A stretch of DNA of 64,000 nucleotides from an uncultured Clostridium sp. (GTDB taxonomy: Bacteria > Bacillota > Clostridia > TANB77 > CAG-508), in the NCBI GenBank assembly GCA_900553945.1, contig USFR01000004.1:60161-124160 (forward strand), written 5' to 3'. Below are positions 11,811-61,147 of the stretch, in pieces; position 1 is the first letter of the stretch, and each line of letters begins with the position of its first letter. Made by a program: the position numbers and the translations under genes. The notes beneath the pieces are model-generated. The model worked only from the letters and a program-made list of their open reading frames with translations. It was not told the DNA's origin and did not search any database.

Positions 11811-11958
11811 ATGAAAATTTGTTGAAAAAAAGACGTTGTTGCTATAAAATTGCAATGACGTTTTTTGTGCTTTTTATTATAGAAAAAAGTTAATGAATAT
11901 GATATAGTATTGTTGCATTTAAGATGAGCATAATTAATATAATTTAGGAGGTATTATT

Positions 11959-17117: not shown

Positions 17118-17243
17118 AGAATAATATAGATAAAATTGTTGTATTTTAAGGTTAGTTTAACTTAACATGATATAATGATTTTATCTATATTTTTTTGTAT
17201 ATAAAATAACAATATATTTAATTCCAAAAAATATTATATTTAA

Positions 17244-17335
17244 TTTTTTCGTTCCTTGCTAAAAGATTTTACTGCTGACTAAACTTTGTTTAGTCAGCTA
17301 GGTAAAAACTTTCAAACTGCGCGTCACTCAAAAAT
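17244..17335. repeat. short member of the intergenic repeat family (termini shared with the 24316 and 60241 copies)
   Basis: Begins TTTTTTCGTTCCTTGCT and ends CTGCGCGTCACTCAAAAATT. The internal hairpin is gctgactaaactttgtttagtcagc. Confidence 0.35.
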
Positions 17336-17461
17336 TAAATATAATATTTTACTTGTATATAATAATAGAATTTTTCAATTTTTTCTATTGCAAATATAGT
17401 CTATTATTGGTATTATTATGTAGTAAAGAAGCAAATTTAGTCAAATTATGAGGAGATAAAA

Positions 17462-21508: not shown

Positions 21509-21588
21509 TAAATTATGATATAGACAGGGCGTTTTTAATAGCGCCCTAATTTCTATAATAAAAAGTTCTTTGAGATTCTGATTATAGA

Positions 21589-21660
21589 AATTAATAATGC
21601 ACAGAAATTTGCTTTGCAAATTTTGCACACGAACAAAAACGTGGTCTTAAAAATGTTATA
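21589..21660 (+). repeat. conserved ~80-nt intergenic element, copy A (hairpin CACG-aacaaaaa-CGTG)
   Basis: ~80% identical to 57211-57285. The extended -10 TGTTATAAT lies immediately downstream. Confidence 0.4.
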
Positions 21661-21725
21661 ATAAGTACAAATATTATAAATAGCCCGCTTTTGTTTTTTA
21701 CAACATATGGAGGTAGAAAATAGTT

Positions 21726-24238: not shown

Positions 24239-24315
24239 TTTTAAATTTTGTGTGACCTTTATTACGATGAGTAATAGAGGTCTTTTTATTGTATTAACTT
24301 CAAAAAGTCATATTA

Positions 24316-24482
24316 TTTTTTTTCGCACCTTGCTGTCGCATTCCTCGGTTTTTTGAAAATAAAAAATGTCAATTTTGATGTTATCTACATCACATTGACA
24401 TTTTCTAATTTTCAAACCGGGTAGAATGCTTCAATCGAGCTCACTACGTTTGCTTGGTCCCTGCGCGGTGATTCAAAAAATT
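24316..24482. repeat. intergenic repeat element, long copy
   Basis: Shares ~130 nt of flanks with 60241-60392 (CTTGCTGTCGCATTC...GGGTAGAATGCTTCAATCGAGCTC...GGTCCCTGCGCGGTGATTCAAAAA). The central hairpin has a different sequence. Confidence 0.5.
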
Positions 24483-24573
24483 AATATGATTTTTTGAAGT
24501 TAGTAGCAATAAGAAATAATGTTTGATTATGAATGGATTATATGATAAAATTTCTTTGTAATTTTTTAGTAGA

Positions 24574-57113: not shown

Positions 57114-57210
57114 TAAATGAATATGGGGCTATGTATGGGTTGCGTTATGCAGATTCGTGCATGGCTTTTTTATATAATATGAAACTTTTTTGAACATCCT
57201 ATTATATAAA

Positions 57211-57285
57211 ACAACAATGCACAGATATTTGATTTGCAAATTTTGCGCGCGAACAAATACGCGGACTTAAAAAAGTAAAACAAGT
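57211..57285 (+). repeat. conserved ~80-nt intergenic element, copy B (hairpin CGCG-aacaaata-CGCG)
   Basis: Aligns with 21589-21660. The stem carries paired A->G / T->C substitutions. Confidence 0.4.
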
Positions 57286-57441
57286 GCAAATGTTATTAAT
57301 GTCCCCTTTGGCTCTAATATGAAACTTATTTGAGATATAATAATTATAAAAAATTTAAATTTGAAGAAGAAAGTAAAATAATTGAAAAAAGATATGCATT
57401 GTGATAGAATACATTTATCTTTTTAAGGAGGATGATAAGTT

Positions 57442-60179: not shown

Positions 60180-60240
60180 TGTTTCAAAAATATAATTATA
60201 TATTATTAGAAAAGATTAAAGAAAAAGTACATATGAAAAT

Positions 60241-60392
60241 TTTTTCACATCTTGCTGTCGCATTCTTCGAATCTTGAAAATAAGGTTATCTTTGGAGAAA
60301 AATCCTTAGGATAACCTTATTTTCAAATCGGGTAGAATGCTTCAATCGAACTCGCTTCGCTCGTTTGGTCCCTGCGCGATGATTCAAAAATT
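60241..60392. repeat. intergenic repeat element, long copy (between convergent genes)
   Basis: Same flanks as 24316-24482. The central perfect hairpin is aaaataaggttatc...gataaccttatttt. Confidence 0.5.
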
Positions 60393-60539
60393 TTATATGT
60401 ACTTTTTCTTTTTTCTTTTGCAATAGTTATATAAAAAAGAAAGTATTGCTGAAATACACTTAAAAAAGTTTATTTTAGTAATACTTTCTTTTTTTGAACA
60501 AATAAAAATTATCTGCTCAAACTATGGCAATGTTTTGCG

Positions 60540-60917: not shown

Positions 60918-61147
60918 TTTGAACCTCCTACAGTATTAAGCCTTTGGCTAGTAGTTCATCCAAATTTTAAATTAATTTGGCGAACGAACAAAAAGTATTA
61001 CATCTAATATATGTAGTGAAAACTACACAAACTTAAATGTCTGTTTTTGTTCTATATTTATTTTTGACAAAAAAATTTTTTTTATGCATAATAAAAAAAT
61101 TTTGTGAAAAAATAAGAATATATTGGAAAAATGTTGAGGTTTTGAAT

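What the first reader, a model, noticed from the sequence alone, without database searches (positions are those of the whole stretch)
21589..21660. Second conserved ~80-nt element (two copies) with compensatory base-pair change in a hairpin
21589-21660 and 57211-57285 are ~80% identical (AATGCACAGAnATTTGnTTTGCAAATTTTGC…CGAACAAAnACG…CTTAAAAA). The stem CACG/CGTG in copy A becomes CGCG/CGCG in copy B, a paired A->G plus T->C change. This supports a conserved RNA hairpin or a palindromic protein-binding site. Both copies sit 70-150 nt upstream of + strand genes (ctpA; glmU-like), overlapping or abutting an extended -10 (TGTTATAAT in copy A). A weaker relative may exist at ~60960-60990.
Basis: seen in the sequence. 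Interest (0 to 1): 0.55.

Follow-up and report, generated by a model that had tools for sequence, protein, structure and literature searches.

The report
Hairpin-rich repeat inserted after terminators
The two similar stretches are copies of a roughly 145-base, three-hairpin repeat that has inserted just behind gene terminators in some uncultured gut Clostridia; this is an ordinary kind of small repeat element, although this family seems undescribed, and it is not a dedicated switch for the two downstream genes.

Summary
The two copies are real: about 80% identical, with none expected by chance. They are longer than reported, about 145 nt each (21553-21696 and 57172-57315). Each unit has three hairpin modules. 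P0 is an AT-rich hairpin at the 5' end. P1 is AAATTTGC-N3-GCAAATTT. P2 is a terminator-like hairpin, GAACAAA..GCGGAC / GTCCGC..TTTGTTC, that encloses the TGnTATAAT box.

Related genomes show that the unit is an insertion. It is missing upstream of ctpA in three related species, missing at the glmU-like locus in one species, and present at a third site in a 95%-identical strain where this window is empty. It also occurs as tandem and partial copies. It sits directly after the T-run of the upstream gene's terminator. In 11 of the 12 loci with usable flanks it runs in the same direction as a neighbouring gene. The downstream genes are unrelated.

Its variable pair is unpaired in 9 of 17 distinct sequences, and covariation is no better than in shuffles. 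There is no match in Rfam or in the plasmid and phage collections.

Best reading: a new family of structured interspersed repeats, similar in kind to SPRITE, BOX and bcr1. It may add a terminator and a promoter to the genes it lands beside. The claimed third copy near 60960 is native intergenic DNA.

The parts
21526..21552 (+). Intrinsic terminator of the upstream M23-peptidase gene plus its T-run. This is the insertion target of copy A and is not part of the element.
   Evidence: Terminator scan. The same hairpin is followed directly by the ctpA ribosome-binding site in L151, L152 and L154.
21553..21696 (+). Copy A, the full unit of about 144 nt, inserted between the terminator T-run and the ctpA ribosome-binding site.
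   Evidence: Empty-site comparison with L151, L152 and L154. Covariance model R1 scores 125 bits over 21594-21706.
21554..21586 (+). P0 module of copy A: the 5'-terminal AT-rich hairpin, decayed in this copy.
   Evidence: Fold z = +0.7 in A, against -1.9 for the same locus in L024 and -7.1 for E_L100.
21598..21627 (+). P1 hairpin of copy A: AAATTTGC (21605-12) / GCAAATTT (21616-23), with an outer TGCA/TGCA extension.
   Evidence: The core is 95.6% paired, but most of it was fixed by the search patterns used.
21628..21643 (+). It overlaps the 5' arm of P2.
   Evidence: The middle pair is unpaired in 9 of 17 distinct sequences.
21631..21696 (+). P2 of copy A, a terminator-like composite hairpin. 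Lower stem GAACAAAA (21631-38) / TTTTGTTT (21689-96); upper stem GTGGTC (21641-46) / GCCCGC (21683-88); apical AT hairpin 21656-63 / 21672-79.
   Evidence: -12.2 kcal/mol, z = -1.9. Model R2 scores 82.9 bits.
21654..21662 (+). Extended -10-like box TGTTATAAT inside the P2 loop, 64 nt upstream of the ctpA ATG.
   Evidence: Sequence. TGnTATAAT is also present in L011, L017 and L024. Other copies carry weaker variants.
57144..57171 (+). Intrinsic terminator and T-run of the upstream 84-aa ORF. This is the insertion target of copy B.
   Evidence: The empty site in L154 is shown.
57172..57315 (+). Copy B, a full unit with decayed P0 and P2. P1 is 57225-57243. P2 arms are 57251-57266 / 57301-57314.
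   Evidence: R1 scores 108 bits. The P2 fold is no better than shuffles, z = +1.0. The unit is absent from the L154 orthologous site.
57316..57336 (+). Partial second unit, consisting only of the first arm of P0 (TAATATGAAACTTATTTGAGA). It repeats 57176-57196.
   Evidence: Sequence. A 19-nt direct repeat with 1 mismatch flanks copy B.
11863..11868 (+). Empty site. A 95%-identical strain (L100 1392-1572) carries a 181-nt insertion here: one full unit plus a 3' remnant of another.
   Evidence: blastn break points, sequences, R1 at 110.7 bits on L100 1480-1591.
60953..61063 (+). The claimed weaker relative ('C'). It is not a supported member and is native divergent-promoter DNA.
   Evidence: R1 at 20 bits, E = 0.064. 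R2 at 15.6 bits, E = 1.3. The region is largely conserved in L154.

Best explanation
The two copies belong to a previously undescribed family of short interspersed intergenic repeats in a few lineages of uncultured, low-GC gut Clostridia. The core is about 105 nt and the full unit about 145 nt.

A unit is three hairpin modules in a row:
- P0: up to 13 bp, TATAATAGAAAGT / ACTTTCTATTATA.
- P1: AAATTTGC-N3-GCAAATTT.
- P2: an A-tract, a 6-bp GC stem, an apical AT hairpin, the return GC stem and a U-tract. This is the anatomy of a two-way intrinsic terminator.

Shown:
- The unit is an insertion that is present or absent between species and strains.
- It lands in or right after the T-run of the upstream gene's terminator.
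- It is nearly always co-oriented with the neighbouring genes.
- It can form tandem or partial arrays.
- Many copies, including B and partly A, have decayed.

Inferred:
- It is a non-autonomous mobile element whose mobilising enzyme is unknown.
- Once inserted, it is transcribed with its neighbours and acts as transcription punctuation. P2 would stop read-through from the upstream operon.
- In copies that keep TGnTATAAT in the P2 loop (copy A, upstream of ctpA), transcription could restart inside the loop. That transcript would lack the 5' arm and so escape termination.
For: Family membership and extent.

Insertion status:
- ctpA orthologues at 91%, 88% and 74% identity have only 68-84 nt between the M23 terminator and the ctpA ribosome-binding site, and no model hit.
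- The glmU-like locus is empty in L154.
- A third site is filled in L100 and empty at window 11863-11868.
- Group D has one or two tandem units depending on strain.
- A 5'-half-only copy lies upstream of an rRNA operon.
- L109 and L117 share the core but have different 5' flanks.

Position and context:
- The unit abuts a terminator T-run in A, B, E, D, L011 and L079.
- In 11 of the 12 loci with usable flanks it is co-directional with a flanking gene. L017 is antisense to both neighbours and L007 has a divergent upstream gene. In L079/L097 and L145 the co-oriented gene is an rRNA or tRNA gene read from the sequence.
- Downstream genes are unrelated: protease, NTP transferase, transketolase, T4SS pilin-like, cadherin-like, amidohydrolase-like (by inspection only), tRNA, rRNA.

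Structure:
- P2 folds with z from -2.2 to -4.2 in L007, L017, L011 and D1.
- P0 folds with z down to -7.1, and base pairs differ between loci while pairing is kept.
- P2 holds 31 G-U cells against 9 A-C cells on the + strand, so the + strand is the folded one.
- The given register is 90% paired, against 31-55% when slid.

Databases: no Rfam family and no plasmid or phage match.

Lineage restriction: three related genomes have no copy in 63 kb of syntenic sequence.
Against: - No terminal inverted repeats at the unit's ends, no unambiguous target-site duplication (the junctions lie in T-runs) and no associated transposase were found. Mobility is inferred from presence/absence only. Precise deletions or recombination could produce some of the same patterns.
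- Genome-wide copy number could not be measured. Only 2-3 copies were seen in about 74 kb.
- Covariation in P1 and P2 is not statistically above shuffles: 90.0% against 89.5% paired, and 87 of 500 shuffles do as well. Much of P1 was fixed by my search patterns.
- The terminator and promoter functions are read from sequence only. The -10-like box is canonical in only about 8 of 13 distinct copies, and P2 is degraded in B and in the D2 group.
- No transcription data exist.
Confidence: 0.6

Rival explanations
1. A family of paralogous trans-acting small RNA genes. Each unit would be an independent transcription unit, with a promoter upstream of P1 (TTGAGA-17-AATAAT in A) and P2 as its Rho-independent terminator. 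The RNA of about 100 nt would regulate targets through the conserved apical loop AAGUGCAAAU. Tandem copies and subfamilies would resemble LhrC, Qrr or csRNA families.
For: - A sigma-70-like hit, TTGAGA-17-AATAAT, ends 6 nt before the conserved core of A.
- P2 looks like a terminator followed by UUUUGUUCU.
- Tandem units exist.
- Two sequence subtypes recur across loci and species.
- The element occurs in either orientation relative to its neighbours in L017.
- G-U pairs are enriched on the + strand.
Against: - The promoter-like hexamers lie inside the P0 hairpin, which itself shows compensatory differences. Spacing and sequence of the hexamers vary, and the B copy's hexamers do not pass the scan.
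- The element is absent from orthologous loci in species with 74-91% identical CtpA. There are no copies in 63 kb of syntenic DNA there, which is unlike conserved sRNA genes.
- Many copies have lost P2 or P0.
- The loop sequence differs in the D2 group and in L117.
- In A, L030 and L109 the ribosome-binding site of the next gene follows within 8-25 nt. A fully terminated sRNA would leave that gene without a promoter.
Confidence: 0.15
2. A cis-acting leader or attenuator. The segment CGYGG would pair either with the upstream CRCG or with the distal GTCCGC (the P2 upper stem, acting as terminator). A factor binding P1 or the AACAAAGA loop would set read-through into the downstream gene.
For: - The two helices share bases and exclude each other.
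- In 11 of the 12 loci with usable flanks the element is co-oriented with a flanking gene, and in several it lies 8-25 nt from that gene's ribosome-binding site.
- The L155 strain variant of B has a C-G to U-A swap in the small stem that at the same time breaks a P2 pair.
- In B the small hairpin is the minimum-energy fold.
Against: - Downstream genes share no function.
- The element is absent from orthologous leaders.
- The anti-terminator would be only 4 bp with an 8-nt loop, and it is mismatched in half of the sequences.
- B has its own good promoter downstream of the element (57382-57410).
- No Rfam family matches.
Confidence: 0.1
3. A DNA operator module. The 19-bp palindrome AAATTTGC-N3-GCAAATTT and/or CRCG-N8-CGYG would be bound by a dimeric transcription factor that controls the TGnTATAAT promoter about 45 nt downstream.
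For: - The P1 arms are invariant where they were not fixed by the search: D1, E_L100 and L145 keep the stem, and in D1 the loop is flipped from TTT to AAA, which preserves the palindrome.
- The palindrome centre lies about 55 nt upstream of the start site predicted for TGTTATAAT in A.
- The half-sites CRCG/CGYG vary independently, as expected for a protein site.
Against: - The palindrome does not occur on its own elsewhere in the window: 5 hits at up to 3 mismatches against 2.7 expected, and only A and B are close matches.
- About 145 nt are conserved together, far more than an operator needs.
- The -10 box is not conserved in many copies.
- G-U-type asymmetries in P0 and P2 argue for single-strand folding.
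- No regulator gene is linked to the element.
Confidence: 0.08
4. A small protein-coding gene. An in-frame ORF starts at the ATG of AATGCACAG and would encode about 17 aa: MHRNLLCKFCTRTKTWS in A and MHRYLICKFCARTNTRT in B.
For: - The ORF starts at ATG, TTG or GTG in most copies and keeps its frame through L[LI]CKFC.
- L117 has a good Shine-Dalgarno sequence (GAGAGGTGGTG) upstream of an in-frame ATG.
Against: - All six A-versus-B codon differences change the amino acid.
- ORF length ranges from 11 to more than 60 aa.
- The cysteines are lost in D1 and E_L100.
- The D1 loop flip turns LC into QS but keeps the hairpin.
- Most copies have no Shine-Dalgarno sequence, and L030 has ATA in place of a start codon.
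Confidence: 0.02

Closest known systems
[quoted passage not shown]
   Same: A short interspersed intergenic repeat whose predicted fold resembles a Rho-independent terminator. It lies close to the 3' ends of genes, and its copy number differs between close relatives (as summarised in PMC3184786). Here the core is about 105 nt, P2 has terminator anatomy, and the unit abuts the upstream gene's terminator.
   Different: No sequence relationship was tested or is expected. This element has two further hairpin modules (P0, P1), is co-oriented with the downstream genes, and carries an extended -10-like box. It is found in uncultured Clostridia, not streptococci.
BOX elements of S. pneumoniae (modular boxA-boxB(n)-boxC)
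   Same: Modular build with separable parts. Here these are P0+P1 alone in L079/L097, P1+P2 alone in L109/L117, and tandem or partial arrays. Both are predicted to fold stably, lie in intergenic DNA, and are non-autonomous.
   Different: The sequences and module structures differ. BOX is thought to be mobilised by a specific IS (PMC3184786), and no candidate was found here.
bcr1 repeat of the Bacillus cereus group (about 155 bp)
   Same: Similar size. Its genomic distribution is not conserved between closely related strains. Independent stem-loops are kept through compensatory changes, structural stability varies, and decay is repeated among copies (PMC3184786). It is also from a low-GC Firmicute.
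   Different: bcr1 is flanked by 5-bp direct repeats. Here the junctions fall in T-runs, so no defined duplication could be read. Transcription is shown for bcr1 and untested here.
Correia elements (CREE/NEMIS) of Neisseria
   Same: A small insertion that can bring promoter sequences and so alter expression of the adjacent gene (PMC3184786). Copy A may do this for ctpA.
   Different: Correia elements have clear terminal inverted repeats, a TA duplication and an IHF site. None of these is seen here.
IS200/IS605-derived palindrome-associated elements and REP/RAYT repeats
   Same: Hairpins near both ends, no terminal inverted repeats, strand-specific orientation, and insertion next to a short motif that resembles the element's own 3' end (TTTTGT).
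   Different: The left (P0) and right (P2) hairpins are unrelated in sequence. The 'target' is a generic T-run, not a fixed tetra- or pentanucleotide. The element is much longer and more AT-rich than REP units. No Y1 transposase was seen.

Membership tests
Classical MITE | Terminal inverted repeats at the two ends of the element | tested here: not met
   The unit starts (C/A)TATAATAGAAAG... and ends ...GTCCGCTTTTGTTCT. All inverted repeats are internal hairpins (P0, P1, P2) and do not join end to end.
Classical MITE | Target-site duplication of fixed length | tested here: inconclusive
   All three empty/filled comparisons put the junctions inside T-runs. Possible duplications are TTT(T) at A and TTTTGT at E, and TATAAT at B is ambiguous.
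Classical MITE | Presence/absence polymorphism between close relatives | tested here: met
   A, B, E and D1 are each filled in some genomes and empty in others.
Classical MITE | Many copies per genome, and a related autonomous IS with the same ends | not testable with these tools
   Only about 74 kb of this genome could be read, with 2 copies plus 1 polymorphic copy. No IS with matching ends was seen in about 400 kb of fetched loci.
Structured interspersed repeats (SPRITE / BOX / bcr1 type) | Short (about 100-200 nt) intergenic repeat with stable predicted stem-loops | tested here: met
   The unit is about 145 nt. P0 folds with z down to -7.1 and P2 with z down to -4.2. All 13 loci are intergenic.
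Structured interspersed repeats (SPRITE / BOX / bcr1 type) | Non-conserved distribution among related strains or species, and decayed copies | tested here: met
   Decayed P0 or P2 in A, B, L007 and D2.
Structured interspersed repeats (SPRITE / BOX / bcr1 type) | Sequence homology to a named family | tested here: not met
   No Rfam match at gathering or permissive thresholds. No plasmid or phage blastn match. It therefore works like these families but is not a member of any named one.
IS200/IS605-type palindrome-associated element | Similar subterminal hairpins at both ends, and insertion 3' of a fixed short target | tested here: not met
   P0 (TAGAAAGT/ACTTTCTA) and P2 (GCGGAC/GTCCGC) are unrelated. 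The left flanks end in ATTT, TTTT, TTGT or TTAC.
Trans-acting sRNA gene | Own promoter and terminator, and conserved synteny in related species | tested here: not met
   A terminator-like P2 is present. The promoter calls are weak and overlap the P0 hairpin. Synteny fails, because the element is absent from orthologous loci.
Riboswitch or cis-regulatory leader | Consistent association with functionally related downstream genes, and a conserved aptamer | tested here: not met
   Downstream genes are unrelated. No Rfam family matches.
Invertible promoter (inverton) | A segment between inverted repeats found in both orientations in different genomes | tested here: not met
   The 36-38 nt between the P2 arms has the same orientation in all copies. 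True invertons do exist elsewhere in the window.

The most novel reading that the evidence does not exclude
The element may be a terminator-homing mobile cassette. It would recognise the hairpin plus T-run of an intrinsic terminator in a strand-specific way. One possible route is pairing of its internal GAACAAA(G) stretch with the TTTTGTT-like tail, because its own 3' end recreates that motif and so allows tandem insertions. On arrival it would install a new terminator with a promoter embedded in the terminator loop. This would convert operon read-through genes such as ctpA into separately controlled units.
Probability: 0.12. Interest if true: 0.65.

Novelty: new member of a known kind. Interest (0 to 1): 0.3.

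Why it matters
If the reading is right, this is one more family of small structured repeats, found in poorly known gut Clostridia with no cultured representatives.

Its practical value is modest but real:
- It explains why unrelated genes share 145 nt of near-identical upstream DNA. This prevents annotating a false regulon, riboswitch or sRNA.
- It marks strain-variable sites.
- It gives a natural case in which an insertion may have uncoupled ctpA from the ftsEX-M23 peptidase operon by adding a terminator and a promoter.

The consistent placement on terminator T-runs would be the most interesting part, if it proves to be a targeting mechanism and not the result of selection.

Tried and rejected
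- **Rfam.** Gathering and permissive scans of the window, of copy A, of the best-folded copy and of six related loci found nothing beyond tRNAs and sub-threshold hairpin noise.
- **blastn against plasmids and phages.** No relevant hit.
- **Small ORF.** Rejected on its substitution pattern, variable length and missing Shine-Dalgarno sequence.
- **Known operator motifs recalled from memory.** LexA/Cheo box, CodY, cre, Spo0A box, WalR, sigma-54, sigma-H, ECF -35/-10, PurBox, CIRCE, parS and rrn boxA. None fits by eye, so these were leads only, not tests.
- **P2 as a separate small inverted-repeat element.** A P2-only covariance model found no extra copies in the window or in 165 kb of related loci.
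- **P2 as an inverton.** The loop orientation is constant in all copies.
- **Prophage attachment site.** In L145 a tRNA gene lies between the element and the integrase.
- **The third copy near 60960.** Rejected.
- **First viral scan.** It returned only unrelated coding hits.
- **The two large pattern scans.** Most of their hits were chance matches, or unrelated perfect hairpins of the same palindrome.
- **Covariation statistics.** They did not reach significance for any helix in the tool's shuffle test.

Full report
**Observation**

The two stretches exist as described. The repeat finder gives 21562-21656 against 57182-57276 at 80% identity without gaps (D7). The shared core TTTGCAAATTTTGCNCNCGAACAAA occurs exactly twice in 64 kb, with none expected even at 3 mismatches. 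CACG/CGTG in A and CGCG/CGCG in B are at 21628-31/21640-43 and 57248-51/57260-63. TGTTATAAT is at 21654-62.

The downstream genes are an S41/PDZ carboxy-terminal protease and an NTP-transferase/hexapeptide protein. Each copy follows an intrinsic terminator of the upstream gene, at 21526-47 and 57144-65. The similarity runs well beyond the reported 72-75 nt.

**Relatives elsewhere**

A pattern scan of one genome per species returned 28 loci. Five are true relatives, four from Hadza gut 'uncultured Clostridia' MAGs. The fifth is 'uncultured Clostridium sp. UMGS1994', which carries the A locus at about 95% identity to the window. The rest are chance hits.

A metagenome scan keyed on the P1 palindrome added several more:
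- a large group (D) lying between a gene of unknown function, itself just downstream of a bile-salt hydrolase gene, and a cadherin-like surface protein gene;
- the divergent members L056, L109/L117 and L125;
- a half-element (L079/L097).

A viral-contig scan keyed only on P2 found one further copy (L145), upstream of a tRNA gene beside a prophage. Rfam has no matching family at either the gathering or a permissive threshold. The plasmid and phage collections gave no meaningful match.

**Anatomy**

Aligning 17 distinct sequences and folding them gives a unit of about 145 nt with three modules.

- P0, at the very 5' end, is an AT-rich hairpin of up to 13 bp (TATAATAGAAAGT / ACTTTCTATTATA in L100).
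  - It folds far better than shuffles in E_L100 (z = -7.1), L011 (-5.4), L017 (-4.3) and L056 (-4.1).
  - Base pairs differ between loci while pairing is kept.
  - It is decayed in A, B and L007.
  - The TATAAT-like boxes on either side of it are therefore hairpin arms.
- P1 is AAATTTGC-N3-GCAAATTT.
  - Its loop is flipped from TTT to AAA in one copy.
  - A G-U closing pair becomes G-C in three copies found independently of the search pattern.
- P2 pairs GAACAAA(G) with (C)TTTGTTC, and GCGGAC with GTCCGC about 36 nt further on.
  - An AT-rich apical hairpin between them holds the TGnTATAAT box.
  - A-tract, GC stem and U-tract together are the layout of a two-way intrinsic terminator.
  - P2 folds well in L007, L017, D1 and L011 (z = -4.2 to -2.2), weakly in A (-1.9), and not at all in B or the D2 group.

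**Is the pairing selected?**

In the given register 90% of cells are paired, against 31-55% when the partner is slid by 1-3 columns. Shuffling the partners among sequences gives 89.5%, and 87 of 500 shuffles do as well. The alignment is therefore too conserved to prove covariation.

Softer evidence favours folding of the + strand. P2 contains 31 G-U cells against 9 A-C cells. In L109/L117 the upper stem survives five substitutions only as U-A and G-U pairs.

Its variable pair is unpaired in 9 of 17 distinct sequences, and its covariation score equals that of the shuffles. One strain variant of B (L155) does show a C-G to U-A swap in the outer pair of this stem. A weak local hairpin competing with P2 therefore remains possible.

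**It is an insertion**

This is the decisive result.

- CtpA orthologues at 91%, 88% and 74% identity sit in the same ftsEX - M23 - M23 - ctpA gene order. Only 68-84 nt separate the M23 terminator from the ctpA ribosome-binding site, and there is no element.
- The empty site reads CCCTAAATTTTTACATACGGAGG. The window reads CCCTAATTT[144 nt]TTTTTTACAACATATGGAGG.
- The glmU-like locus is also empty in the 74% species.
- A strain 95% identical to the window carries a 181-nt insertion, one full unit plus the 3' remnant of another, exactly where the window has none (11863-11868). It lies right after a terminator T-run.
- Group D has one or two tandem units depending on the strain.
- B is followed by the first arm of a second unit.
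- L079/L097 carry only P0+P1, about 130 nt upstream of an rRNA promoter.
- L109 and L117 share P1+P2 but have different 5' flanks.
- No further copy lies in the 10 kb beyond the window end. None lies in 63 kb of syntenic DNA from three related species.

**Context**

Thirteen distinct loci were found, and twelve have usable flanks (L007 is cut off downstream). In eleven of the twelve the element is co-directional with a flanking gene. In L017 it is antisense to both neighbours. In L007 the upstream gene is divergent. In L079/L097 and L145 the co-oriented gene is an rRNA or tRNA gene read from the sequence.

The downstream genes have nothing in common. In six loci the unit starts 0-3 nt after the T-run of a clear upstream terminator. 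In A, L030 and L109 the next gene's ribosome-binding site follows within 8-25 nt.

**Interpretation**

The best-supported reading is a lineage-restricted interspersed repeat. It behaves like a non-autonomous mobile element and belongs to the same general kind as SPRITE, BOX, bcr1 and Correia elements. Their properties are taken from the review PMC3184786.

It is not a classical MITE. It has no terminal inverted repeats, and the duplication at its junctions cannot be read because they fall in T-runs. It does not match the IS200/IS605 pattern either, because its two end hairpins are unrelated. How it moves is unknown.

What it does after insertion is inferred from anatomy. P2 should terminate read-through. 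The extended -10 in its loop could restart transcription that skips the 5' arm. In relatives, ctpA has no room for a promoter of its own and must be read through from the upstream operon. Copy A may therefore have rewired its expression. Copy B is a decaying copy, and its gene keeps a good promoter of its own at 57382-57410.

**Rivals**

- An sRNA gene family remains possible. It is weakened by the lack of synteny, the decayed copies and the overlap of the promoter-like hexamers with the P0 hairpin.
- A transcription-factor operator would not explain 145 nt of joint conservation or the G-U asymmetry.
- A 17-aa ORF is rejected on its substitution pattern.

**Third copy**

The suggested relative near 60960 scores at noise level. 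It lies in native divergent-promoter DNA that is shared with a species lacking A and B.

**Verdict**

The specific hairpin interpretation is not supported. The feature is a new family of a familiar kind of element, of modest interest. One open and more interesting question remains: whether its placement on terminator tails reflects a targeting mechanism.

Noticed in passing
window 60204-60425 (inverted repeats 60204-60243 / 60386-60425): This segment of about 220 bp is inverted in another strain of the same species (L098 8990-9206 maps in reverse at 96%). It is flanked by 40-nt inverted repeats. It looks like a phase-variable invertible promoter between the 486-aa gene and the holin-like gene.
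   Followed up: partly
window 24292-24505: A paralogue (80-85% identical) of the invertible segment above, with its own 31-nt inverted repeats (24292-24322 / 24475-24505). This is probably the 'first' conserved element implied by the title of the finding.
   Followed up: partly
window 17228-17350: A second invertible segment. Perfect 21-nt inverted repeats flank 81 nt, and the segment is reversed in strain L100 (6951-7070, 97.5%).
   Followed up: partly
window 47690-48195, with degenerate units near 48529 and 50756: A CRISPR-like array: 8 copies of a 30-nt repeat (GTATTAATTTAAATATATTAGAATGTAAAT) at 65-67 nt spacing.
   Followed up: no
window about 26000-54900: A variable genomic island. In the 74% species (L154) the PGA_cap/HD genes are followed almost directly by DUF3006 and the Y-family polymerase. 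The window has about 28 kb more here, including the CRISPR array. Another strain (L155) has methyltransferase, bile-salt hydrolase and NUDIX genes in place of the MerR and VIT/VWA genes.
   Followed up: no
L153 2703-2985 (ctpA upstream region in the species with the 82% orthologue): The same site, after the M23 terminator, holds a different hairpin-rich insert of about 215 nt (for example ATTCTTGTAATA...TATTACACAAGAAT). Its start resembles the P0 region of copy A, but the models do not detect it. The site may be a hot spot for such elements.
   Followed up: no
metagenome loci L039, L041, L051, L053, L054, L064, L083, L088, L108, L119, L123: Unrelated environmental contigs carry a longer perfect palindrome, GCAAAATTTGC-TTT-GCAAATTTTGC, several of them next to tRNA genes. 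These are probably independent terminator hairpins picked up by the nearly palindromic search pattern.
   Followed up: no
window 44848-44881: A 34-nt stretch resembles the P2 loop region alone (model R2, 26 bits, E = 0.008). It is AT-rich and promoter-like, and has a similar neighbour at 45866-45908.
   Followed up: no
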